Shown here piece after piece: positions 2,670 to 48,203 of a stretch of 64,000 nucleotides of DNA (position 1 is the first letter of the stretch; each line of letters begins with the position of its first letter). This DNA is from Naegleria gruberi (Eukaryota). A program made the position numbers and the translations under genes. The stretch is taken from the NCBI GenBank assembly GCA_000004985.1, contig GG738882.1; one strand, given 5' to 3'. The notes under the pieces are model-generated. The model was not told where the DNA came from, made no database searches, and was given only the letters and a program-made list of their open reading frames with translations.

Positions 2670-2787
2670 GGCTACGGCCATATCACGATGAATGCACCTC
2701 ATCCCGTCCGATTTGAGAAGTTAAGCATCGTCGAGCCACATCAGTACTGAGGTTGGAGACAACTTGGGAACCTGTGGTGCTGTAGTC
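2670..2787 (+). rRNA. 5S ribosomal RNA
   Basis: GGCTACGGCCATATCACGATGAATGCACCTCATCCCGTCCGATTTGAGAAGTTAAGCATCGTCGAGCCACATCAGTACTGAGGTTGGAGACAACTTGGGAACCTGTGGTGCTGTAGTC matches the eukaryotic 5S consensus (CCCGTCCGAT, AAGTTAAGC, GGGAA..GGTGCTGTAG). 5' and 3' ends pair to form helix I. About 118 nt. Confidence 0.85.
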
Positions 2788-2794
2788 TTTTTTT
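2788..2794 (+). terminator. Pol III terminator T-run after 5S rRNA
   Basis: TTTTTTT immediately 3' of the 5S gene. Confidence 0.6.
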
Positions 2795-2905: not shown

Positions 2906-4120
2906 TCATTGTAAAAAGTATTGATGAAGCTTTTTCAGTGCAACTTGCCATTCAGGTCCACAATTCACAGCTGCAAACTTGGCCACTCCGTTTAACATTC
3001 GAAATTCACATTCAAAATTAGCATTACAATCTCCCATTAATATCTCACGATCCTCTTCCCAAGAAAATAAAACAGTTCCTGTAAATTCAGCCAAAGGATT
3101 CAATTCAACAATTTTCACAATTAAATTTCCATTTGTCATGTCCTTGACAAGAATAATATCGATTGCATAGTTTGAAATTGGTAATTCTGCATTGTTTACA
3201 ATATTTTCCAAGATGAATGAAATGATAAGGTGTTTGATTTGATCCTTTTGTTTGAAAAGCGTTGGGAAATAGACAACTGGGTTGTATTGGGTTAAACCTG
3301 TAATTTTTCTATTGTAAACAAAGGCTCTAAATTCATGAGCTACATCAAAGTCGTTCCACTTTTCAAAATAATTACAAAGAACTTTAACAAATTGAAAATT
3401 CATAACTAGTAAACATACCTCTCTAATAATAAGATCAAGTGGTGATTTTGTTGGACTATCCAACATTGCTTTGAATTCTTGTTGAGCTCTCTTTGATTCA
3501 ATTAATAATTGAATTGCTTCATGTCCATTGTAAATTTTCAAAATTGAAATGCTTGCTCTATATAATGCATACATGATAATATTCGTCTTCTCTGACTTAT
3601 CCAATGATTTATCATCCAATAGCTCACTCTCCTTCAAAATATTCAAATATTCCTCATGAATTAACTTGACAAATCCTTTTCTATTAATGGCTGCATCCTT
3701 TGGTGAAAGAGTTGACAATCTAATAAAAACTCCACTTCTTCCACTCAATTCTTCCATTTCCTTCATCTTACTACTAATTCTATCAGCTAAATTATTCAAA
3801 ATTTTTGCATTTTCTCCAACTTTCCACTCATCATATTCCACTACATTATCTTTTTCATTTTGTGGAAATTCGCACTTCTTGAATTTTTCATTTTCATCAA
3901 TCAATGCCTTGATTTCACTTCTTTCCAATGTCATTTGCAATGATCGGAAGGAAAATGGCTCAATTACTTTGAAATAGGTATCAAAATTTGTTTCTTCCAA
4001 TAAGTGTTGATAATCATCATCGGATGAGCAAATCATTCGTGAATTGGTCGATTGCTTGCTTTTTGTGTTGGTTTTACGAAGGGAAACTCCAGAACGAATA
4101 TCATCGAGGAAGGAACTCAT
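2906..4120 (-). CDS. CDC123: CDC123 family protein (cell division cycle protein 123 homolog, D123 domain)
   Basis: Motifs GVFIRLSTLSPKDAA (cf. FPKLNWSAPRDA), AHEFRAFV and ELNPLAEFTGTVLFSWEED match the D123 family signature. The first ATG is at 4120; the ORF track extends to 4153 on a TTG start. Confidence 0.65.
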   Translation of the reverse strand: MSSFLDDIRSGVSLRKTNTKSKQSTNSRMICSSDDDYQHLLEETNFDTYFKVIEPFSFRSLQMTLERSEIKALIDENEKFKKCEFPQNEKDNVVEYDEWKVGENAKILNNLADRISSKMKEMEELSGRSGVFIRLSTLSPKDAAINRKGFVKLIHEEYLNILKESELLDDKSLDKSEKTNIIMYALYRASISILKIYNGHEAIQLLIESKRAQQEFKAMLDSPTKSPLDLIIREVCLLVMNFQFVKVLCNYFEKWNDFDVAHEFRAFVYNRKITGLTQYNPVVYFPTLFKQKDQIKHLIISFILENIVNNAELPISNYAIDIILVKDMTNGNLIVKIVELNPLAEFTGTVLFSWEEDREILMGDCNANFECEFRMLNGVAKFAAVNCGPEWQVALKKLHQYFLQ

Positions 4121-4288
4121 TTTTTTGTATTGGTTTTTATTGAGTTGAATCAAATCTGTTGCTATTTACAATTTTTACAAAAGTTCCAAGTTCATTGAAT
4201 ATCACAAAATATGTTATTTCAATTCTTGTGTTGTGTGGTGAGTAGTGCTTGGAATTGAGTTGTATTATACCATTGAACAGGGAACATA

Positions 4289-5758
4289 TTAAAAGTTTGG
4301 ACCTCTTTCACGAAGAGAAGCTCTAAAGTATAATAATTCCATACATGGGAAACATAACATGTAACCAAACCACAGAATTACATTTCCGAAACGAGTTCCT
4401 TTGACTTTTTCTGTAACGTAGAAGAGTGGAATTTGAGAAATGACCATGCAGAAGAAGTATGGTCTGAAGACTCTAAAAGTGTAGATTAGTACAAATTCAT
4501 GCAAGGCGGCAGTGACAAAGAATGTTGATGTGGCAGCCCAGAATTTGTTGAATCCCTTGACTCGTCTCATACTCTCCACATAGATGTGTCTGGACATGAA
4601 TTTGAGAACTGGTCTATTCCACAATCTCCAATATTGAGAGACACTGGTTGCAGACCACCATTCGAGATAGAATTCTCTATCAGCATATCTAACCATCTCT
4701 GCAGTTGCATTCATAAAACAGTGAAAGACACAATAGAATGTCAGCATCCAAATTATCATGGAAGGAATGGTCAAATTAATGATCAAATCATACCAATCGT
4801 AGGTCTCAATTTCCTGTAAGAATGGTGAGATGTGTCTTTGAATAACGAGATACATTACAAGGCAAATCAATAGACCTCCACCATATTCTCTTGCCACATA
4901 TCGATAATCAACCTTATCAGTTCTTGGAAATTCTATTTCATAGACCAAACTTGGAATTCTCACATACTCTACAAAGTCAAACACCAACCAGTACAATCTT
5001 TCCCAATGTGAATAGGACTCACACCTAATCTTCTCATAACGATTATTGAAAATCGGCTTGTTTCCATTTTGAGCGTATTTCCCTTCATAGACAATTTCCT
5101 CTCTGAAATATCTATTCGTGATGAAATAACTATGCATTTTGAAACTATTTACAACTGTTTGACAACCAAGAGCAGATCTACACAAAGGACTCATACTATC
5201 AGTGTTGAAAACTATCCAAGTAGGAACTGCAAACATAGTCAATTGTGCAAGTGCATAAATTGTACAATTAATTCCATCCCAAAAAGGAGACAATCTCTTC
5301 TTTTGAGCAAATTGAATAAGAATAAACTCAGATAACACTGAATAAATCAAAGAAAATGCAACTATTGAAAACCAATATCCAATTACAAAATGCACACCTT
5401 TCAACATTGTAAACAATAAAGTAAAGTCAATCAGTTGCCCACTCTGTCTCCAATTATGATACATTACATTTCCAGACCAAACAACCAACAATAATCCAAA
5501 CAAATTCAAAAAACCTTCACTACTTTTCATTTCCAGTAGTGATTTTCTTGATTGTGGTGGATAGGGAAACTTTCCTATCAATGTATCCTTCTTATCTGGA
5601 TTGACTCTAAACTCATCCGATGATGAAGAAGATGATTTCGTCTCTGAAGAATCCGAAGAAACTGAAGCAGTAGACTGATCAACTACCTTTCCTTTCAAAC
5701 TAGCTTCAGAAACAACCTCCACTCCACTGTTCGTATTATCAACAGCTTTACTAATCAT
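4289..5758 (-). CDS. MBOAT-family sterol O-acyltransferase / DGAT1-like acyltransferase
   Basis: Multi-pass membrane ORF carrying FYLEWWSATSVSQYWRLWN (the FYxDWWN motif of ACAT/DGAT1) and a conserved His in AALHEF. Confidence 0.65.
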   Translation of the reverse strand: MISKAVDNTNSGVEVVSEASLKGKVVDQSTASVSSDSSETKSSSSSSDEFRVNPDKKDTLIGKFPYPPQSRKSLLEMKSSEGFLNLFGLLLVVWSGNVMYHNWRQSGQLIDFTLLFTMLKGVHFVIGYWFSIVAFSLIYSVLSEFILIQFAQKKRLSPFWDGINCTIYALAQLTMFAVPTWIVFNTDSMSPLCRSALGCQTVVNSFKMHSYFITNRYFREEIVYEGKYAQNGNKPIFNNRYEKIRCESYSHWERLYWLVFDFVEYVRIPSLVYEIEFPRTDKVDYRYVAREYGGGLLICLVMYLVIQRHISPFLQEIETYDWYDLIINLTIPSMIIWMLTFYCVFHCFMNATAEMVRYADREFYLEWWSATSVSQYWRLWNRPVLKFMSRHIYVESMRRVKGFNKFWAATSTFFVTAALHEFVLIYTFRVFRPYFFCMVISQIPLFYVTEKVKGTRFGNVILWFGYMLCFPCMELLYFRASLRERGPNF

Positions 5759-6564
5759 TTTTACAAACTCTATACAACTCCTATTTATACAACAATATCA
5801 AATTCTGATTGAGGAGAAACTTTGGAATTGAGGTCAGGGGTAGTTCGAGCAAACTCGTTCTTTGTTTTTTTTTGAGTTTTATTTTAAGAATCATCGAAAA
5901 TTTTCAAGCAATTAAGTAATTGAACGAAGAAGCAATTTTGAAAATTTCCATAAGGAACCAATGGATGATGTATGGAGGAGGGAAGGAAGTCCTATTTTCG
6001 TGGTTGTAGGATTTTGAGAGAGATTTTAGAGTTTTGATTCAAAAATTGGTGCGATTGATCGTATGAACGAAGGGAAAGGAATTGAATGATATTTTGAGAC
6101 AAGCAAGAATTGAAAGTGTTTGAGTAGTGGCAGAGTTGATGATGAATACGCGAAAGTTGTAGATGAGACTTGCCATTTTCGATTGTGCCTACCTGGTGAA
6201 ATGATGCCGGCTGCATTGGACGAAACTTCCAATAAGCAAATTGTGAAATGTAATGTAACTGACAAATTTTTAGTTACGCTTTGTGTTTGGCGCCAAATGG
6301 AACCCGCTAAAACTAACCGTTGATATATCTAAGAGTGTGACTTTTCCCTCCAATTTTTAAAATCACCACAAAAAAAAACAAGCAAAGCAAGTTGCGAACA
6401 AATTGAAAGCCTCCCAGCGTTATCTTGTTCAACATACTCTAGTAGTCAATCATTTTTTAATTGATCGTACACACAACGAATCTAACCTTCATTACCTAGG
6501 ATCAATTCGTTTCTAAGTTTTTTAGTAGTCAAAAGTTTTCCCGTCATAGTATTTAATAATTATC

Positions 6565-9003
6565 ATGACTCTAATTGTTAAAAAGAGTGGAGAGAAGGAA
6601 CTCTTCTCCTCCGAAAAGATTAGAATCAGACTCCAAGACCACACCAAGGATCTCTATCACATTAATATAGATTCTATCATTGAAAAGCTTCAACTTGAAA
6701 TTCACAACGATATTACCACTGAAAAGTTGGACAACCTCATTGCTGAATGTATTGCCTATATGGCCTATTCTCATCCTGACTATTTAAAGTTGGCTGGTAG
6801 AGTGAAAGTTTCTACCCTCCACAAACACACAAAGTCAAAATTCTCTGAAGTCGTTCATGATTTGCGTAACTTCATCCACCCAAGAACTAATTTGCCATCA
6901 CCATTAATTTCCGAAGAAGTTTTTAATGTTGTTGCTGCCAATGTGGATGTTTTGGATCAAGCCATCAAGAGTGAAAGAGATTTCCAATTCGATTACTTTG
7001 GATACAAGACTCTCGAAAGAAGCTACTTGCTCAAACTTGCCGATAGTCGTATTGCCGAAAGACCACAACACATGTTTATGCGTGTAAGTTTAGGTATCCA
7101 CGGAGGTGACATTGAAAGAGCCATTCAAACCTATGATTTACTCAGTAGTGGTATGTTTATTCATGCCTCTCCAACATTGTTCAATGCTGGTACTCCAATT
7201 CCACAAATGAGTTCTTGTTTCCTCGTTTCTATGAAGGATGATTCCATTCATGGTATTTATGATACCCTTAAGACTTGTGCCCTTATTTCCAAGTCTGCTG
7301 GTGGTATTGGTTTGTCAGTTCACAATATTAGAGCTTCTGGATCATACATTAGAGGTACAAACGGAACATCAAATGGTTTAATTCCAATGTTGAGAGTTTT
7401 CAATGACACTGCCAGATATGTCGATCAAGGTGGTGGTAAGAGAAAGGGTGCCTTTGCCATTTATTTGGAACCTTGGCACTCTGACATTTTTGACTTTTTG
7501 GATTTGAGAAAGAATCACGGTAAGGAAGAAATCAGAGCTAGAGATTTATTCTTGGGTTTATGGGTCAACGATCTCTTCATGCAACGTGTTAAGGATGATG
7601 CCGAATGGTCACTCTTCTGTCCAAATGAAGCTCAAGGTCTTGCTGATGTTTGGGGTGAAGAATTCAATCAATTATATACCAAATATGAAAGAGAAGGAAA
7701 GGCCAAGAGAACCATCAAGGCTCAAGAACTCTGGTTTGCTATTATTGAAGCCCAAATTGAAACTGGTGTCCCATACATGTTGTACAAGGATTCTTGTAAT
7801 AGAAAATCCAATCAACAAAACCTTGGTACCATCAAGTCTTCTAACTTGTGTACTGAAATTATTGAATTTACTGCTCCTGATGAAGTTGCTGTATGTAACC
7901 TTGCCAGTATTGCTCTTCCAAAGTATGTCAATGAAGAAACTCAAACCTATGATCACCAAAAGTTATACGAAGTTGTCAAGATTGCCACTTACAATTTGAA
8001 TAAGATTATTGATAAGAATTATTACCCAGTCGAAGAAGCCAAGAAGAGTAACTTTAGACACAGACCAATTGGTCTCGGTGTTCAAGGTTTGGCCGATGCT
8101 TTCATCAAGATGCGTCTTCCATTCGAAAGTGAAGAAGCTAAAAACCTCAACAGGGAAATCTTTGAAACCATTTACTTTGCTGCCATGACCTGCTCAATGG
8201 AACTTGCTAAGGTTGAAGGAACATATGAAACCTATGAAGGAAGTCCAATCAGTAAGGGTATCTTCCAACACGAATTCTGGACCAGAGAAGGTGAACCATT
8301 CGAAGGTAAGACTATTACCAGCGGTAGATGGGATTGGGAAGGTTTGAGACAACAAGTCTTGCAACACGGTGTCAGAAACAGTCTCTTAGTTGCACCAATG
8401 CCAACTGCTTCCACCAGTCAAATCTTGGGCAACAATGAATGTTTCGAACCATATACATCAAACGTTTATACTAGACGTGTTTTGAGTGGTGAATATCCAG
8501 TCATTAACAGACATCTTGTTGCTGATTTGATCAAGATTGACATGTGGAATCCAACTATTGTTAACCAAATTATTGGTAATAGAGGTTCCATCCAAAATAT
8601 CCAAGGTATCCCTGATGATATTAAGGAATTGTACAAGACTGTTTGGGAAATTAAGCAAAGAAGCTTGTTGGATCTTGCCATTGAAAGATCTCCATTCATT
8701 GATCAATCTCAATCTTTGAACGTTTTCATTTCAATTCCATCAGTTTCCAAGATGAGTTCTATGCACTTTTATGCTTGGTCTAAGGGGTTGAAGACTGGTA
8801 TGTACTATTTGAGAACTCAACCAGCCGCCGATGCCATCCAATTCACTGTCGATCCAAACATGATGAAGCAAAGCGTTTCAACATCACAAGCTGAAGAACC
8901 AAAGCAAGAAGAAGAAGTTATCGTTTGCAAAAGAAAGAAGAGAGGCCAAGCTCCACCTGAAGGTGAAGAAGACGAAGAAGAATGCCTCGTCTGTGGTGCT
9001 TAA
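6565..9003 (+). CDS. RNR1: ribonucleoside-diphosphate reductase large (alpha) subunit
   Basis: 812-aa ORF. Has an N-terminal ATP-cone and conserved class I RNR catalytic-core motifs ([29 protein letters not shown]). The C-terminal CxxC tail reads ECLVCGA. Confidence 0.95.
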
Positions 9004-9109
9004 ATTCTCTTCCCTATTCTGTAAATTACACACAACCTACCCAAAACACATTGTGCACTTTAAGTAGTGACAAGTGAACCATCTAATTCTCTTATTTATT
9101 AAAACAAAA

Positions 9110-10306
9110 TTAATTTAAAATACCTTGTCGTTTTTTTAGAATATCATTTTCGTGCTCTTTTGCAAGTTGTGCCAAACATTCAAATGTATTACTCATACAT
9201 TCCTCTAACTTAAACTTGGATATGAGATCAAAGGCAAGGCAATTCTCATTTGGTAAGGTTTCTATCTTTTTCTGCCCACATAAAATAATACAAGGTTTTG
9301 AGTATTTTTTACAGAGCTGGGCAATCCATGACACTACTTTACCACCTTCTGATTGGTGATCATAACTACCTTCTCCTGTAAAGACAATATCTGATTGAGA
9401 AATGACTTGTTCCAAGTTATTAATTGCTCCAATCATTTCAATTCCCTTTTTGAGATTGACTTGTCCATTCAGTATTGAATAGAAACCACCTGCAATGCCA
9501 CCAGCTGCTCCAGCACCACTCAAATTACTGATATCTATATTCTGGTGTCGTTGAATTAACTTTGCAACTTGATTCATGCCCTTCTCTAAAATTTCTCGTT
9601 GCTCTTCAGTGGCTCCCTTTTGCTTGCTGAAAGTATGTACAGCTCCCCTCTCTCCAATAAATGGATTATTCACATCACATGCAATATCAATGGTTAAATT
9701 CTCATACTGGAATGGTAATCCTTCAGTGTTAATTAAAATATCAGAAATATTAATCAAATCTCCTCCCCAGAAAACTTCTCCACTACTCATCAATTTTCCA
9801 TTTAGCTCAATATCAACACATCCCAAACATTTCAAACATCCCAATCCAGCATCATTCGTACAAGATCCACCAATTCCCATCAAGATGTGAATATGATCCT
9901 TCTTTCCATGTTGTTTCAGAATATTCCCAATCACCACTCCCAATCCAAACGTACTCGTATTGAATGGATTTCTCTCCTCCATTTTCAATAATTCCAATCC
10001 ACACACCGTGGCCATCTCCAAAACATAGAGAAAATTATTCTCCACTTGTTTTCTAAAATATGGAACTGTTATCATCAAATCGGAATTTCTAACAGGTCTC
10101 CTCACTTGAACATGATCGAGTTGATAATTTCCTTCTTGATCCTTCTTGATGGCTTCAAGAAAACCTTCACCTCCATCCGATAAGGGAATATTAACAAAGT
10201 CATAATTAACTTGTCCTAAACCTTGCATGATTGCCTTTCCGCACTCTCTTGCTTTCAAGCTATCTTTGAATTTATCGAAACAACAAGCAATTTGAAGTCT
10301 TTTCAT
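9110..10306 (-). CDS. glycerate kinase, class I (bacterial GarK/GlxK family)
   Basis: Collinear with E. coli GlxK: MKRLQIACCFDKFKDSL (cf. MKIVIAPDSFKESL), PLSDGGEGF, ILMGIGGSCTNDAGLG, ACDVNNPFIGERGAVHTFSKQKGAT, GAGAAGG, VFTGEGSYDHQS. Confidence 0.85.
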   Translation of the reverse strand: MKRLQIACCFDKFKDSLKARECGKAIMQGLGQVNYDFVNIPLSDGGEGFLEAIKKDQEGNYQLDHVQVRRPVRNSDLMITVPYFRKQVENNFLYVLEMATVCGLELLKMEERNPFNTSTFGLGVVIGNILKQHGKKDHIHILMGIGGSCTNDAGLGCLKCLGCVDIELNGKLMSSGEVFWGGDLINISDILINTEGLPFQYENLTIDIACDVNNPFIGERGAVHTFSKQKGATEEQREILEKGMNQVAKLIQRHQNIDISNLSGAGAAGGIAGGFYSILNGQVNLKKGIEMIGAINNLEQVISQSDIVFTGEGSYDHQSEGGKVVSWIAQLCKKYSKPCIILCGQKKIETLPNENCLAFDLISKFKLEECMSNTFECLAQLAKEHENDILKKRQGILN

Positions 10307-12722: not shown

Positions 12723-12803
12723 GAAAATCTATCGCGATCTACAGGACTCGAACCTGTGCGGGTCTCCCCAATTGATTTCTAGTCAATCACCTTAACCACT
12801 CGG
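12723..12803 (-). tRNA. tRNA-Ser (anticodon AGA)
   Basis: The reverse complement folds as a cloverleaf: acceptor GCGGTCT/AGATCGC, D-arm AGTGGTTAAGG, anticodon loop CTAGAAA, long variable arm, T-arm ACAGGTTCGAGTCCTGT. Confidence 0.85.
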
Positions 12804-13038
12804 TCAAGACCGCTTTACGATAATTGTGATAATCTTCAATTCACCACTAATAAGCCTATTAATTCTTTGCTGACAAGTCGCACACCAAAACAAGTCCATG
12901 AATGACGTGTGCGATAGAGAGATCATCTTAAATCCATTACATTCTTTTAAAACTGTATCGATCTTTCATCAATGACCTTAAGTCGTCTTCAATTTGTCTT
13001 CAATCAACACATCAATCTTTCAAAAAAAAACATCATCA

Positions 13039-41983: not shown

Positions 41984-42409
41984 TTTTTAATTGTTGTTTT
42001 GATTAATGGAAGTTCACTGTTTTGCTGATTCTGAAAAGCCACTTTACTGAGAATTGGGTGAGAATTCCATGAATTATTGTCCATTGTTATGTCGCTAAAT
42101 ATAGCTTGACTACAGTAGTTGCACCTTCCGAAAGTTGGGAATTATCAAATGAGAAAGGATAATAAGGAAGGATTGAGGATAATTTGATGGAGTAATTCAA
42201 TTTGTGCAACATTTCTTAATCATCACTTGAAACCTGGTTTTTTTGCTGGTTAACAACTGCAAAACAAACCTTGTTACATGTTCAAACATTATTAGAAGTA
42301 TGTACAATATTCAATATACAAGGTGAACTTGATGATTTGTTTCTCAACACAAAATCCTTTTCCGAAGCTAAAAATAAAACATCGGTTACCTTTTTAAACC
42401 ATGTTGTAA

Positions 42410-43156
<747 letters not shown>

Positions 43157-43353
43157 AATAAATTGAACTATTTGTAAAATCAGTAACAAGTTAATCCTTT
43201 AGCTCCATAATTTTGTACTTCACTCATGTTTGCAAAAATGGTTGCATTGAGGAATCTTCAAATGCTTTGACGATATTGATGGAAAGTTACTCGATAATAA
43301 ACAGAATCATTAAAAATAAGTAATAAACTATTTCAGGCGTTTCGATAATAAAA

Positions 43354-43545
43354 ATAGAAAGCAAAAATTTCAATCACCAATGAAATAGCCTTAATTCCTC
43401 TATATAGAGGTACTAACTCTCGTGTCATTAAAAATGAAATAATTTAAAATGACAGGGGGCGAGGGGGAATCGAACCCCCGGCCACAGCTTTGGAGGCTGC
43501 GATGTTACCATTACACCACCGCCCCTGTACATTAAATAATGAAAA
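43354..43545. repeat. left arm of an inverted repeat containing tRNA-Trp plus flanks
   Basis: Reverse complement matches 44766..44972. The tRNA is 71/71 identical, as are about 20 bp 5' and 26 bp 3'. A further ~45-bp 3' block is about 85% identical. Confidence 0.7.
43455..43525 (-). tRNA. tRNA-Trp (anticodon CCA)
   Basis: Reverse complement identical to the + copy at 44787..44857. Acceptor GGGGCGG/TCGCCCC, anticodon loop CTCCAAA, T-arm GGGGGTTCGATTCCCCC. Confidence 0.85.
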
Positions 43546-43693
43546 TAAAATTGCTAGTATGATGTAAGCATGACTCACTAGTAGCAAGAAAACTTTATAA
43601 TTTGAAATAACGAGTTTATTAAATTACGGCAGTAATTGAGAATGTTTTGAAGAGTAAGTATTTTTCTTTTGATTAGCATGTGAATTCAATCTT

Positions 43694-44458
43694 TCAATTC
43701 ATTTCTCTTGCTTCCTTTCTAATTATTTCACTTTCATTCTTTAATAATTCTCCTACAAATTCAAGTGAAGATTCATCTTTTTTAACAGCTTGTAAAACTA
43801 TTTCTCTGTCGTTTCTTAAATTTTCAGAAGCATACTGAAGTGCTGATCCATGTTGTTTGACAGCTGTCAAGACAATTTCTCTATCATTTTGAAGTTCTTC
43901 TGAAGCATTCTTAAGAGTATCACCATGTTGTTTTACAGATGTCAATACAATTTCTCTGTCGTTTGTTAATTCTTTTGAAGCAAAGTGAATTTCATATCCA
44001 TGATGTTGGACAGCTGTCAACATTATTTCTCTGTCATTTCTCAATTCCTCAGATGCATATTGAACTGCATATCCATCCCGTCTTATAGCTGTCAAGATAA
44101 TCTCTCTATCATTTCTCAATGCATGATCAGTGACAAATTTAAGTGCATGAGCATGTGATTTGACAGCATGTAGAACTATCTCTCTATCACTTTTAAACTG
44201 TTCAGGAAGAAATTTGAGTGAAAGTCCTTCGTTCTTGACAATTGCCAATGCTACTTCTCTATCGTTACGTAATTCCTCAGAGGCACTTTCAAGTACTCTA
44301 TATCCGCAGACTTCAGCAATCCTTTTGACAACTGGCTTGTAGTTCCATAATTTTAACCTATCGGCAGTCTCTACCAATTGCTCCTCGTCATCACATTGTA
44401 AAAGATTTTGAATTATATCATCGTTGGTGGTGTCAATTTCTGTCTCTTGTCTATTCAT
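43694..44458 (-). CDS. DUF4116-like tandem-repeat protein (about 8 x 24-aa LRNDREIVLTAVKQHG.ALQYASEE units)
   Basis: 254-aa ATG ORF dominated by repeats such as ASEELRNDREIMLTAVQHHGYEIHFASKELTNDREIVLTSVKQHG. The pattern matches my recollection of the Pfam DUF4116 repeat. Sits between the two inverted tRNA-Trp genes. Confidence 0.6.
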   Translation of the reverse strand: MNRQETEIDTTNDDIIQNLLQCDDEEQLVETADRLKLWNYKPVVKRIAEVCGYRVLESASEELRNDREVALAIVKNEGLSLKFLPEQFKSDREIVLHAVKSHAHALKFVTDHALRNDREIILTAIRRDGYAVQYASEELRNDREIMLTAVQHHGYEIHFASKELTNDREIVLTSVKQHGDTLKNASEELQNDREIVLTAVKQHGSALQYASENLRNDREIVLQAVKKDESSLEFVGELLKNESEIIRKEAREMN

Positions 44459-44765
44459 TTTTTTTTTAATTACTAATACTAAGCAACAACTCGATTTTAA
44501 GAGTTTAAATCGAAAGAGTTTGCAGAGTTTCGAATTGTTAGAGTAGAATTTCTAAAGACAGACATGGGTATTCGTGGTGAAATTGATAATGTTAAATCTT
44601 TACACACGATGTTACTATTTTAATCCGCGGCTAAATGGATAAGAGGTAACAAGGTAAGGATAAGAACATAAGATGTAACCTTGTGATTTTTTATTGGTGA
44701 TTGTTGGAAAAATCCAATTTACAATAACGAATATAATTACCAAAAGGTAGCTCTACCCATTGTAG

Positions 44766-44972
44766 TTTTTCATTAATTAATGTACAGGGGCGGTGGTGTA
44801 ATGGTAACATCGCAGCCTCCAAAGCTGTGGCCGGGGGTTCGATTCCCCCTCGCCCCCTGTCATTTTAAATTATTTCATTTTTATTTAAATAATTTTTTTT
44901 AATGACACTGAAATAGTTCATTACTACTCTATTAAGGCAATTTCATTAGTGATTGAATCATTTTGCTTTCTA
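44766..44972. repeat. right arm of the inverted repeat (tRNA-Trp plus flanks)
   Basis: See left arm. Has a 17-bp insertion (TTTAAATAATTTTTTTT) relative to the left arm, then shared AATGACAC and a conserved ATTAAGGC.ATTTCATT.GTGATTGAA block. Confidence 0.7.
44787..44857 (+). tRNA. tRNA-Trp (anticodon CCA)
   Basis: GGGGCGGTGGTGTAATGGTAACATCGCAGCCTCCAAAGCTGTGGCCGGGGGTTCGATTCCCCCTCGCCCCC. Canonical cloverleaf with a 4-nt variable loop. Confidence 0.85.
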
Positions 44973-45003: not shown

Positions 45004-46767
45004 TTATTTCCTTGACAAATTATTTGCTGATTTTCCGTTTTGATTTCCATTATTATTAGCTGCCTTCTTTTCTCTTTCCTTAATAACCTTGTCAATCTTC
45101 ATCTTTCTCTGGAATTGAACACCAAGTTTAAATCTTTGTAAAGTATCCAACATGACAACTGCAATTTCATTTTGTAAAGGTTCAAATAAATCATCAGGAA
45201 GTTGATCATTCATTTTCTTATCTGGATTGGTGACTAATTGATCAGAGTCAACTGAAAAGAGTGTGAATTCTTGTAAAAGAGCTTCAACTTGATCGGCAAA
45301 TCTCTTACTCACATTCACTGAGTTTTTACCATCCAATCTCAAAAAGTCAACCAAAATTTCATTAGCCAATTCAAATCTCTTATTACAAACAATCTTGTAC
45401 TCCTCCTCAGTGACATTCTTAATCTTTTTCTTCTTTTTGAGTGATGACTTGTTATCAGTATCATTAAATGAAAGAGCTGGATTAGTTTGAGTCTTTTTCT
45501 GAGAATTATGAGTGGTGGTACTGTGACTTCCACTGGTAATTGAGTTTTGTTTCGTTTGATTATCACCAGAGGACACACTCGAGATGGCATCAGTGTCATT
45601 TCCAGAAGTGACACTCTTGGCAGCTCCATGATCATCTGTTTCACTTGTAGAGCTAGTGTCTGTAAAGAGAATATCTTGCATTTCCCAAATTTGTCTCGAA
45701 TATTCACGATACAAATTAGTTCTAATCAAAACTTCATAATTTTCCAATGATAATTCTTGTTTACAATGTTGCTTGAATAAATCTCTCAATTTTGGATCAT
45801 TCATCACATCTAAAAGCATGACAGCTTTGGCCTTCTTTAATCTTTCTCTATTCAAAGCTTCCTTATTAAGAGCTGCCACGAATAGGAAAATCATGACAGG
45901 TAGCACAATAATAAATGCAATTATTGTCACTGAAGAAATGATAATTGTATAAATTCCCATCCAATTATCTTCAGTATCTGACAAGTAAGATGACATGTCT
46001 TCAATGATGGCAATCTTTTTTTCAAACATTTCTTTTAAACCTTCATATTCTTCTCCTTCAATAATTGCAATAGCTGTCCCAGTTGAGTTGACATCAATAA
46101 TCTGTTTCTCCAAAATTTTCAGTTTCGAATGAGCATCCATTAGTTCACTAATCACAACATTTTTATCATAATCATGATTAGCAAAATCCTCTACAGGAAT
46201 AATATTAAAAATCTCATTCAGCATACTATCAATCCAATCCTGATGTGCCTCTAAATGATTATCCAAATTATTATTCGAATGAGCACTTTGATTATTCAAA
46301 AGTTTCGTCAAGCCATCACTCGGATGCACAATAAACGAATCCTGATCGAAAATACTCCTATCACTCATATTCAAATAAGCCTTCAAATGCAACCCACTCG
46401 TAATCAACTGCTGAATAACCAACACATCTTTCGTCGTCTTGTATACGAAATTATCCACCTGCGAACGTAATACGAAAGTTTGTGGAAAGATCACTACCAA
46501 CGCAACCAACAATAACACACTCACCACAATCCCACAAACTGACAATAACTTGACCATTGAAATTCGATAGGATTTTTTCTTCTTCATTAGAAAACAACAA
46601 CAACATGAAGGAAGGACGAGATAGAAACCACGACCATTTCGACCACTTTTAGAATTGTCGTTGTTGGTTGTGGAAGAGTTGGCTGTTCCTCCTTGAACAG
46701 TGTGTTTTTCTTTGGGAAGGGAGAGGAATTGGTGAGAGGTGTCAGCTGTTGGTAATTGATTTGACAT
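45004..46767 (-). CDS. 2-TM receptor-like protein with C-terminal split RGS domain
   Basis: TM1 LLSVCGIVVSVLLLVALVVIF, about 180-aa extracytoplasmic segment, TM2 GIYTIIISSVTIIAFIIVLPVMIFLFVAAL. RGS-like halves AVMLLDVMNDPKLRDLFKQHCKQELSLENYEVLI and EEYKIVCNKRFELANEILVDFL...MLDTLQRFK are separated by a Ser/Thr-rich insert. Confidence 0.55.
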   Translation of the reverse strand: MSNQLPTADTSHQFLSLPKEKHTVQGGTANSSTTNNDNSKSGRNGRGFYLVLPSCCCCFLMKKKKSYRISMVKLLSVCGIVVSVLLLVALVVIFPQTFVLRSQVDNFVYKTTKDVLVIQQLITSGLHLKAYLNMSDRSIFDQDSFIVHPSDGLTKLLNNQSAHSNNNLDNHLEAHQDWIDSMLNEIFNIIPVEDFANHDYDKNVVISELMDAHSKLKILEKQIIDVNSTGTAIAIIEGEEYEGLKEMFEKKIAIIEDMSSYLSDTEDNWMGIYTIIISSVTIIAFIIVLPVMIFLFVAALNKEALNRERLKKAKAVMLLDVMNDPKLRDLFKQHCKQELSLENYEVLIRTNLYREYSRQIWEMQDILFTDTSSTSETDDHGAAKSVTSGNDTDAISSVSSGDNQTKQNSITSGSHSTTTHNSQKKTQTNPALSFNDTDNKSSLKKKKKIKNVTEEEYKIVCNKRFELANEILVDFLRLDGKNSVNVSKRFADQVEALLQEFTLFSVDSDQLVTNPDKKMNDQLPDDLFEPLQNEIAVVMLDTLQRFKLGVQFQRKMKIDKVIKEREKKAANNNGNQNGKSANNLSRK

Positions 46768-47222: not shown

Positions 47223-48203
47223 ATGACTTTAAACCACACCACCACCTCATCCTCGTCACACGTATTACCAACAGAAACAACGACCGTTCGCTTCTCATTA
47301 TTAAATAGTAACAGCAAAAAGTTTAACCTCGTTGATTCGAATATTTATAAAAAGAAACCTAACGGTTGTGGATGTGCTTTATGTTCATTCTTTATGAATG
47401 ATTTTCCAGAGAGTTTAAATGCCGAAGATTATGAACCTTCACGTGTTGAGCAAGTAGCAAACATTGTGACACATGGCATTCCATTAATTATACTTTCGTA
47501 TATTTTCTACTTGACCTCACATGTTGTAAATACGAAATTAGAGATGATTTCATCTGTTCTGTATTGTTCGAGTCTTTTCATTCTATTATCCATATCGACA
47601 TTGTATCATGTCATGTGTTTAATTCATGGAAAACAATCAAGTAAGACCTATTGGTTTCGAATAATTGATTATGCAACAATTTACATATTCATTGCTGCAT
47701 CCTATACACCATACTTGCTCGTAGTTGGTATTGGCCATGAAAACTTTTATGGAAAATTGATGGCTGCATTTATTTGGTTATTGGCAATATGTGGCTTGGT
47801 AAAATCATTTTCAGAAGGAAGATTGCTGGCATTTATTAATAATAATGCATTATTTAACTTGATGGGATGGGCAGCTCTACTTGCCATGCCAACCTCAATG
47901 TTTATTCATGTTCCCTTGGAGGCATTCTTGACCTTACTATTTGGAGGAATATTCTTCTCTGGTGGAGTTTATTTTCTAAAAAAGGATGGAGTCATTCCAT
48001 TTGCTCATGCAATTTGGCATATATTGTCTGTGTGTGGATTCTTGATGCATTTCTTTTCAATTTATTATTACATCTTTCAATTGGATGGATTGTTCGTTCC
48101 ACATGGAGTTTACAATTCAAAAATGGCGTATGAGCAAATTATTGAAACACTTACTGGGCAGAGAATGCCATTTGGTCATTTGCGTGTATCCCCAATACAC
48201 TAA
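47223..48203 (+). CDS. PAQR / hemolysin-III family 7-TM membrane protein
   Basis: Motifs ANIVTHGIPL, STLYH, IDYATIYIFIAASYTPY and FAHAIWHILSV fit the HlyIII/adiponectin-receptor family. Confidence 0.8.
   Translation: MTLNHTTTSSSSHVLPTETTTVRFSLLNSNSKKFNLVDSNIYKKKPNGCGCALCSFFMNDFPESLNAEDYEPSRVEQVANIVTHGIPLIILSYIFYLTSHVVNTKLEMISSVLYCSSLFILLSISTLYHVMCLIHGKQSSKTYWFRIIDYATIYIFIAASYTPYLLVVGIGHENFYGKLMAAFIWLLAICGLVKSFSEGRLLAFINNNALFNLMGWAALLAMPTSMFIHVPLEAFLTLLFGGIFFSGGVYFLKKDGVIPFAHAIWHILSVCGFLMHFFSIYYYIFQLDGLFVPHGVYNSKMAYEQIIETLTGQRMPFGHLRVSPIH

What the first reader, a model, noticed from the sequence alone, without database searches (positions are those of the whole stretch)
43354..44972. Inverted duplication of a tRNA-Trp locus enclosing a single repeat-protein gene
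Two 71-nt tRNA-Trp(CCA) genes are 100% identical and sit in inverted orientation with 5' ends facing inward, 1.26 kb apart. The identity extends beyond the tRNA: about 20 bp upstream and 26 bp immediately downstream are identical. A further downstream block of about 45 bp is about 85% identical, and the right arm has a 17-bp insertion. Together these give diverged arms of about 200 bp. The interval contains only the DUF4116-like repeat-protein gene. The structure resembles a foldback/cassette arrangement or an old inverted segmental duplication. It could affect local recombination or chromatin, since tDNAs can act as insulators.
Basis: seen in the sequence. Interest (0 to 1): 0.6.

Follow-up and report, generated by a model that had tools for sequence, protein, structure and literature searches.

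The report
Inverted duplicate tRNA-Trp genes in Naegleria
Two identical tryptophan tRNA genes, each with about 200 bases of its own flanking DNA, lie back to back on either side of an ordinary helical-repeat protein gene in the amoeba Naegleria gruberi; this looks like a routine local gene duplication, not a new kind of element.

Summary
The window is Naegleria gruberi nuclear DNA. Two 71-nt tRNA-Trp(CCA) genes, at 43455-43525 (-) and 44787-44857 (+), are identical and transcribed divergently, with 1261 nt between them. Homology covers -20 to +26 (117 nt, one mismatch). Allowing an 18-nt insertion in the right arm, it reaches +33. A 42-column outer block is 88% identical. No similarity exists further upstream or beyond the block. 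The arms occur nowhere else in the 64-kb window, and I recognised no target-site duplication and found no transposase. The interior holds only a DUF4116 alpha-solenoid gene with normal host composition.

Best reading: a DNA-level inverted duplication of a roughly 200-bp tRNA-Trp unit. Both copies keep their A box, B box and T-run terminator. N. gruberi is reported to carry about 924 tDNAs. Retroposition is excluded because homology runs past the Pol III terminator and upstream of the gene.

Mobile-cassette, invertible-segment and insulator readings have no positive support. I could not test whether the flanks are shared by all tRNA-Trp copies, because the rest of the N. gruberi genome was unreachable with these tools. 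Low interest: a new instance of a known kind.

The parts
43455..43525 (-). Left tRNA-Trp(CCA) gene, 71 nt. A box 43508-43518, B box 43466-43476. T4 Pol III terminator within 43446-43449.
   Evidence: ARAGORN; Rfam RF00005 57.5 bits; motif coordinates
44787..44857 (+). Right tRNA-Trp(CCA) gene, 71 nt, identical to the left copy. A box 44794-44804, B box 44836-44846. T4 terminator at 44863-44866.
43355..43545 (-). Left arm of the inverted duplication. It holds 20 nt upstream (43526-43545), the tRNA, 33 nt of shared downstream sequence (43422-43454), a 26-nt non-alignable segment and the outer block (43355-43395).
   Evidence: the repeat finder I1/I2; alignments; blastn; permutation tests
44767..44972 (+). 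Right arm of the inverted duplication. It holds 20 nt upstream (44767-44786), the tRNA, shared downstream sequence interrupted by the 18-nt insertion, a 22-nt non-alignable segment and the outer block (44931-44972).
44884..44901 (+). 18-nt AT-rich insertion found only in the right arm (TTTAAATAATTTTTTTTA). Its placement is ambiguous by a few bases.
   Evidence: Gapped alignment; exact coordinates
43397..43410 (.). Perfect 14-nt palindrome CCTCTATATAGAGG inside the non-alignable segment of the left arm. It is probably a small hairpin-type insertion that contributes to the local loss of alignment.
43319..43336 (-). 18-mer matching 44908-44925 at 17/18. It lies outside the outer block on the left but inside it on the right, so it is non-collinear. 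Either a small rearrangement or chance.
   Evidence: the repeat finder I8; blastn E 5e-4 for arm against arm and 0.04 window-wide
43694..44458 (-). Enclosed gene: a 254-aa DUF4116 repeat protein with 7 Pfam repeat matches and a 75-nt DNA period. It is predicted to be an all-helical alpha-solenoid. Its ATG lies 328 nt from the 5' end of the right tRNA, and its stop codon lies 168 nt from the 5' end of the left tRNA.
   Evidence: ORF; Pfam PF13475 E 7e-110; 75-nt period (D2); AlphaFold pLDDT 93; no PDB relative; GC 0.348 and GC3 0.227, typical of the window

Best explanation
This is an ordinary local inverted duplication, at the DNA level, of one nuclear tRNA-Trp(CCA) transcription unit of Naegleria gruberi. 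The duplicated unit ran from about -20 to about +100 relative to the tRNA, roughly 190-200 bp. The two copies ended up on opposite sides of a pre-existing or later-arriving DUF4116 gene. Each copy keeps an intact internal Pol III promoter (A and B boxes) and a T-run terminator 5 nt past the gene. Both are therefore most likely working tRNA genes that raise tRNA-Trp gene dosage. After the duplication the flanks picked up a few point differences (5 of 94 alignable non-tRNA positions) and three or four indel or replacement events. The tRNA bodies stayed identical, through purifying selection and perhaps occasional gene conversion between the arms. The DUF4116 gene is a bystander. Shown: the anatomy, the extent of homology, intact Pol III signals and the absence of mobile-element hallmarks in the window. 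Inferred: the duplication mechanism, the activity of both copies and the bystander status of the gene.
For: The window is N. gruberi: its RNR ORF is 100% identical to the NCBI N. gruberi protein. The tRNA bodies are identical and valid. Homology extends 20 nt upstream and, in blocks, about 100-115 nt downstream, past the first T4 terminator. Copying therefore happened at the DNA level and not through a Pol III transcript. Homology stops sharply at -20 and at the end of the outer block. A box, B box and terminator are present in both copies. The flanks of the tRNA-Ser and tRNA-Arg genes in the window differ from the Trp flanks, so the shared flank is not a generic tRNA context. Pooled flank divergence is 5.3%. 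At that rate the chance of zero differences in the 71-nt body is 0.02, which is consistent with selection on both copies. Divergence of the inner flank and the outer block does not differ significantly (Fisher p 0.16), so one duplication event is enough. N. gruberi is reported to have 924 tDNAs (PMC2888827), so duplication of tRNA genes is frequent in this genome. [quoted passage not shown] The DUF4116 gene has host-like GC and GC3.
Against: Whether other tRNA-Trp copies in the genome share these flanks is unknown. If they do, the two arms might be independent members of a dispersed family and not a local duplicate pair. The inner flanks (1 difference in 53 positions) are better preserved than expected if both genes are active, because inner tRNA flanks are among the fastest-evolving sequences in animals and plants (PMC6130373). 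This hints at recent gene conversion or at constraint, and not at simple neutral decay. The non-collinear 18-mer shows the history is not a single clean copy event. No orthologous locus could be obtained to date or polarise the event.
Confidence: 0.72

Rival explanations
1. The duplication is older and is kept uniform by gene conversion. The two arms are old copies, and the near-perfect core (-20 to +33) is a recent conversion tract between inverted repeats. The outer block and the scrambled middle show the true age. This modifies the best explanation and does not replace it.
For: The core has 1 difference in 53 flank positions, whereas the outer block has 4 mismatches in 41 aligned positions plus 1 gap, and the 22-26 nt between them cannot be aligned. 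Inner tRNA flanks normally diverge fastest (PMC6130373), which is the opposite of what is seen here.
Against: The difference between core flanks and outer block is not significant (Fisher p 0.16). The unalignable middle can be explained by a few indels, including a 14-nt palindrome. No third copy or outgroup is available to demonstrate conversion.
Confidence: 0.3
2. The flanks belong to a family-wide unit. All or many tRNA-Trp genes of N. gruberi share this -20..+100 context because a roughly 200-bp tDNA module was amplified throughout the genome. On this reading the two arms are merely two nearby members and need not be copies of each other.
For: N. gruberi has an unusually large tDNA complement, 924 (PMC2888827). 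The window holds 4 tRNA genes in 64 kb, against none in 64 kb sampled from N. fowleri and N. lovaniensis. The homology occurs in discrete blocks.
Against: No other copy of any arm block occurs in the 64-kb window. The flanks of the Ser and Arg tDNAs are unrelated to the Trp flanks. Proximity and mirror symmetry favour a local event.
Confidence: 0.12
3. The structure is a mobile or foldback cassette. The two arms are terminal inverted repeats of a non-autonomous DNA element that carries the DUF4116 gene as cargo.
For: Formally there are roughly 200-bp inverted terminal arms around a single gene. A palindromic footprint-like sequence lies in the left arm.
Against: No target-site duplication is recognisable at the arm ends (sequence, my reading). 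The interior has no transposase or other mobile-element domain. No further copies occur in the window. The flank motif is absent from viral contigs. The cargo gene has host-like composition. DUF4116 relatives examined in N. lovaniensis and in a bacterial contig have no tRNA within 10 kb. The best DUF4116 hit, on a 2.3-kb contig, also has none.
Confidence: 0.04
4. The pair is a functional tDNA bracket or an invertible segment. The two tDNAs either insulate the DUF4116 gene from its neighbours through TFIIIC, or they mediate flip-flop inversion of the 1.2-kb interval by homologous recombination between the 117-bp identical arms.
For: Both tDNAs have perfect B boxes, which are TFIIIC sites. The gene's promoter region abuts the right tDNA and its 3' end abuts the left tDNA. 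tDNA barrier activity in yeasts is established knowledge (from my own knowledge, not tested here).
Against: There is nothing specific in the sequence. Any pair of nearby tDNAs would satisfy this description. No recombinase is encoded nearby. No population or chromatin data are available.
Confidence: 0.05

Closest known systems
Paired or triplet tRNA genes with identical anticodons in Dictyostelium discoideum (reported in PMC8163159, citing the genome paper)
   Same: These are nearby copies of the same tRNA gene in a compact, AT-rich protist genome with hundreds of tDNAs. They are interpreted as local duplications.
   Different: The organism is from a different supergroup (Heterolobosea). Here the shared flanks were mapped base by base. 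I did not verify the orientation or flank statistics of the Dictyostelium pairs.
Homogeneous anti-parallel tDNA pairs surveyed across eukaryotes (Bermudez-Santana et al. 2010, PMC2888827)
   Same: Both members have the same isoacceptor and are in head-to-head (divergent) orientation. The species was part of that survey, with 924 tDNAs.
   Different: That survey defined clusters by gaps under 1000 nt. This pair is 1261 nt apart with a protein gene between, so it would not have been counted as a cluster.
Foldback or MITE-type elements with long terminal inverted repeats
   Same: Two inverted arms of about 200 bp bracket a short interval.
   Different: There is no target-site duplication, no multiplicity in the window and no transposase. 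The arms are complete Pol III genes and not anonymous repeats.
tRNA-derived SINEs or retroposed tRNA copies
   Same: A tRNA sequence has been copied to a second site.
   Different: Homology includes 20 nt upstream and about 100 nt beyond the first Pol III terminator. There is no A-rich tail. This pattern is incompatible with copying through a Pol III transcript.
tDNA chromatin barriers (budding-yeast HMR tDNA; inverted tDNA clusters flanking fission-yeast centromere cores)
   Same: tDNAs with intact B boxes flank a domain symmetrically.
   Different: The resemblance is only positional. No heterochromatin context is known here and no functional data exist.

Membership tests
Local DNA-level duplicate pair of a nuclear tRNA gene | Two valid tRNA genes with the same anticodon and (near-)identical bodies lie close together | tested here: met
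   ARAGORN and Rfam; bodies identical at 71/71; 1261 nt apart
Local DNA-level duplicate pair of a nuclear tRNA gene | Homology extends into non-transcribed flanks on both sides, beyond chance | tested here: met
   117-nt core at 99% (E 2e-61) and a 42-column outer block at 88% (E 3e-9); a pattern search finds 2 matches against 0 expected
Local DNA-level duplicate pair of a nuclear tRNA gene | The flank is specific to this pair and not shared by every copy of the isoacceptor family | not testable with these tools
   The N. gruberi genome outside the window was unreachable. The tRNA body and flank are absent from metagenome and viral collections.
Local DNA-level duplicate pair of a nuclear tRNA gene | Both copies retain Pol III promoter and terminator elements | tested here: met
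   A box, B box and T4 run located in both copies. Activity itself was not tested.
TIR / foldback / MITE-type mobile element | Terminal inverted repeats | tested here: met
   Arms 43355-43545 and 44767-44972
TIR / foldback / MITE-type mobile element | Target-site duplication directly outside the arms | tested here: not met
   Reading the sequence, the left outside flank is ...GATAATAAAAA and the right outside flank is ATAATCTTGG.... I see no matching direct repeat abutting the ends. The arm ends are fuzzy in AT-rich DNA.
TIR / foldback / MITE-type mobile element | Multiple dispersed copies | tested here: inconclusive
   No other copy in the 64-kb window. The rest of the genome is not testable.
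TIR / foldback / MITE-type mobile element | A transposase, or a remnant of one, for an autonomous member | tested here: not met
   The interior encodes only DUF4116 repeats. The neighbours are polyubiquitin and an RGS-like membrane protein.
tRNA-derived retroposon (SINE-like) | Homology confined to the Pol III transcript, with an A-rich or LINE-like tail | tested here: not met
   Homology starts at -20 and continues past the T4 terminator at +6..+9, reaching about +102 on the left arm and about +115 on the right.
tDNA insulator / barrier | Demonstrated TFIIIC-dependent barrier activity | not testable with these tools
   Only the B-box sequence is present.
Invertible segment between inverted repeats | Both orientations of the interval present in a population, or a dedicated recombinase | not testable with these tools
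   Only a single assembly sequence is available. No recombinase domain is found among neighbouring ORFs.

The most novel reading that the evidence does not exclude
The roughly 200-bp tRNA-Trp unit, meaning the tDNA plus its own -20..+100 flanks, is a self-propagating or recombination-spread module that helped inflate the N. gruberi tDNA complement to about 900 copies. In this inverted configuration it would form a recombinogenic, potentially invertible or insulated cassette around a lineage-specific DUF4116 gene.
Probability: 0.06. Interest if true: 0.5.

Novelty: new member of a known kind. Interest (0 to 1): 0.15.

Why it matters
It matters little on its own. It is a clean, well-delimited example of how tRNA gene families grow by small DNA-level duplications that carry their own promoter-proximal and terminator flanks, in a genome with an unusually large tDNA count. 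It could serve as a marker for dating tDNA turnover, or for detecting gene conversion or inversion between short inverted repeats in Naegleria strains. It would gain interest only if the arm proves to be a dispersed, mobile module genome-wide.

Tried and rejected

2. I spent the third and last homology search on a chimeric query (PRTase + RGS-like + HlyIII) to obtain orthologues of the flanking genes. It returned nothing, probably because low-complexity words filled the candidate list. That search was wasted.

3. The polyubiquitin protein matched exactly in N. fowleri (L001) and in an ENA contig (L002). Neither locus shares other genes with the window, and neither has a tRNA. They are not usable as an orthologous locus.

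4. The N. fowleri RNR locus (L004) keeps MBOAT-RNR-glycerate kinase synteny. Synteny then breaks, and no tRNA is present where N. gruberi has tRNA-Ser. Microsynteny is too short to reach the Trp locus 34 kb away.

5. Both metagenome scans (the full 71-nt tRNA, then a 38-nt sub-pattern) and two viral scans (flank motif, sub-pattern) found no hits.

6. None of the 20 DUF4116 hits I fetched showed, by eye, the N-terminal 55 residues of the window protein, so I identified no orthologue. Loci of the best hit, of an N. lovaniensis paralogue and of a bacterial homologue have no tRNAs.

7. I compared the outer block by eye with the B-box consensus, looking for an external B box of the Dictyostelium type. 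I counted 7 of 11 matches with the invariant C missing, and rejected the idea.

8. A PDB sequence search and a Foldseek search for the DUF4116 model gave only generic helical-repeat matches.

Full report
**Source and context.** The window is AT-rich (GC 0.30-0.38), gene-dense DNA with long uninterrupted ORFs. Its ribonucleotide reductase ORF (6565-9003) is 100% identical over 812 aa to the NCBI Naegleria gruberi protein. It is 85% identical to the N. fowleri protein and 76% to that of Willaertia magna. The window is therefore N. gruberi nuclear DNA. The gene order around the finding is as follows:
- polyubiquitin, 42467-43156 (+)
- tRNA-Trp (-)
- DUF4116 gene, 43694-44458 (-)
- tRNA-Trp (+)
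- an RGS-like membrane protein, 45004-46767 (-)
- a HlyIII/PAQR-like protein, 47223-48203 (+)

**Checking the observation.** ARAGORN finds four tRNA genes in the window, among them tRNA-Trp(CCA) at 43455-43525 (-) and 44787-44857 (+). Rfam's tRNA model scores both at 57.5 bits against a gathering score of 29. The two 71-nt bodies are identical. Their 5' ends face inward, so the genes are transcribed divergently with 1261 nt between them.

The repeat finder reports a 117-nt inverted repeat, 43429-43545 / 44767-44883, at 99% complementarity. blastn gives E 2e-61 for it. The repeat covers 20 nt upstream, the tRNA and 26 nt downstream. The single mismatch is at -11.

A gapped alignment shows that the right arm carries an 18-nt AT-rich insertion (44884-44901). 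After the insertion, 13 more bases are shared (43422-43434 / 44896-44908). All 33 nt downstream of the left copy are therefore present in the right copy.

Next come 26 nt (left) against 22 nt (right) that do not align above chance. The left segment contains a perfect 14-nt palindrome, CCTCTATATAGAGG, at 43397-43410. A 42-column block follows, 43355-43395 / 44931-44972, at 88% identity (E 3e-9). A degenerate pattern for this block matches exactly these two sites, with none expected by chance.

Permutation tests find no similarity upstream of -20 (p about 1) or beyond the outer block (p 0.2). One further 18-mer, 43319-43336 against 44908-44925 at 17/18, is out of order with respect to the block. 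Its E-value is 5e-4 arm against arm and 0.04 window-wide.

This is the only significant inverted repeat in the 64 kb.

**What the parts are.** Both tRNA copies have the following elements:
- an A-box-like element, TGGTGTAATGG
- a B box, GGTTCGATTCC, that matches the consensus perfectly
- a T4 run starting 6 nt past the 3' end, with further T runs behind it

By sequence, both are complete Pol III units.

The tRNA-Ser and tRNA-Arg genes of the window have unrelated flanks. The shared Trp flank is therefore not a generic tRNA context of this genome.

The enclosed ORF is a bona fide DUF4116 protein (PF13475, E 7e-110, seven repeat matches; 75-nt DNA period). AlphaFold predicts an all-helical solenoid with mean pLDDT 93. 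This agrees with a published alpha-solenoid model for the family (PMC8078820). No solved relative exists by sequence or by fold. The gene's GC (0.348) and GC3 (0.227) are typical of the window's genes, so nothing marks it as foreign.

Its closest database relatives are only 40-55% identical across the repeats. None of the 20 I inspected showed its N-terminal 55 residues by eye. It is a lineage-specific member of an expanded repeat family.

**How the structure most likely arose and works.** Homology begins 20 nt upstream of the mature 5' end and continues about 100 nt past the first Pol III terminator. The copy was therefore made from DNA and not from a Pol III transcript, which excludes a SINE-like retroposition.

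Mobile-element hallmarks are missing:
- I recognised no target-site duplication when reading the arm ends in the sequence.
- No transposase or other mobile-element domain lies inside or next to the structure.
- No further copy of any arm block occurs in the window.

The simplest account is a single inverted duplication of a roughly 190-200-bp tRNA-Trp unit, followed by limited decay. That decay amounts to 5 differences in 94 alignable flank positions (5.3%), plus the 18-nt insertion, a one-base gap and the remodelled middle segment with its palindromic insertion.

At 5.3% divergence, the chance that the 71-nt body carries no difference is 0.02. This fits purifying selection on both copies, meaning both are in use.

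The inner flanks (1/53) are not significantly better preserved than the outer block (4/41; Fisher p 0.16). Gene conversion is therefore not required. It remains plausible, because inner flanks of active tRNA genes are among the fastest-evolving sequences in animals and plants (PMC6130373), and here they are the best-preserved part.

Functionally, the pair most likely just doubles local tRNA-Trp gene dosage. The DUF4116 gene sits between the copies as a bystander. Its promoter region shares a 328-nt divergent spacer with the right tDNA, and its 3' end lies 168 nt from the left tDNA.

**Comparison with what is known.** N. gruberi was reported to carry 924 tDNAs, an order of magnitude more than kinetoplastids (PMC2888827). 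Frequent tDNA duplication is therefore expected in this genome. The same survey describes homogeneous and anti-parallel tDNA pairs across eukaryotes. [quoted passage not shown] The present pair is one more instance of that kind.

In the small samples I could fetch, N. fowleri (43 kb, L001 and L004) and N. lovaniensis (21 kb, L005) show no tRNA genes at all, against four in this 64-kb window. This agrees weakly with a higher tDNA density in N. gruberi.

**What could not be done.** It needs the rest of the N. gruberi genome, which these tools did not expose. The tRNA body, a 38-nt sub-pattern and the flank motif have no exact match in the metagenome or viral collections.

No orthologous locus was obtained. 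The identical polyubiquitin protein of N. fowleri sits in a different gene neighbourhood. Microsynteny around RNR ends after three genes. My last homology search was wasted on a chimeric query.

**Verdict.** The "inverted segmental duplication" reading is supported. The foldback, cassette, MITE and insulator readings have no positive evidence. This is a new instance of a known, common kind of event and is of low interest, unless a genome-wide search shows that the 200-bp arm is a dispersed module.

Noticed in passing
window 2670-2788 (+): A solitary 5S rRNA gene (Rfam RF00001, 105 bits) lies between two protein ORFs (894-2486 and 2906-4153, both on the minus strand). In this region, 5S genes are therefore dispersed among Pol II genes, as the tRNA genes are.
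   Followed up: no
window 44857 / 43455 (last base of each tRNA-Trp): With the ARAGORN and Rfam boundaries, the discriminator base (position 73) of this tRNA-Trp is C, followed by TGTCATTTT. From my own knowledge, eukaryotic tRNA-Trp usually has A73, so the identity rules of the Naegleria TrpRS might differ. The cloverleaf was hand-parsed only. The RNAfold minimum-free-energy structure was not a canonical cloverleaf.
   Followed up: no
window 42467-43156 (+); L001 10001-10690; L002 1248-1937: The 229-aa tri-ubiquitin protein, ending in an extra N, is 100% identical between N. gruberi and N. fowleri. Within the N. gruberi gene the three DNA repeats are only about 85% identical to one another (D1). 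The two species' loci share no other gene.
   Followed up: partly
window 42240-42262: A 23-mer 357 nt upstream of the first matching site resembles the IFAGKQLE-coding part of the ubiquitin repeat (D3). Translation gives 'GFFAG*QLQ'. This may be a decayed fourth ubiquitin unit upstream of the gene.
   Followed up: partly
window 4289-10306 versus L004 7431-14435: MBOAT, RNR large subunit and glycerate-kinase-like microsynteny is conserved between N. gruberi and N. fowleri. The gene order then diverges, and the tRNA-Ser at window 12733-12813 has no counterpart within 10 kb in N. fowleri. tDNA positions appear not to be conserved between these species.
   Followed up: partly
window 6565-9003 (+): Outside Heterolobosea, the best full-length matches to the RNR large subunit are Flavobacteriales and other Bacteroidota proteins at 62-66% identity. 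A 968-aa record labelled Cocos nucifera scores higher than the Acrasis protein. That could reflect the known affinity between eukaryotic and Bacteroidota class I RNRs, or contamination in that plant assembly.
   Followed up: no
L006 10001-11302: One of the closer DUF4116 relatives (P0030, 433 aa) lies on a 3.1-Mb contig among clearly bacterial genes, including sigma-70, CoiA, Cpn10 and glycosyltransferases. DUF4116 repeat proteins therefore occur in bacteria as well as in Naegleria.
   Followed up: no
window 43397-43410: A perfect 14-nt palindrome, CCTCTATATAGAGG, is present only in the left arm, exactly where the two arms stop aligning. It looks like a small hairpin-type insertion or repair footprint.
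   Followed up: partly
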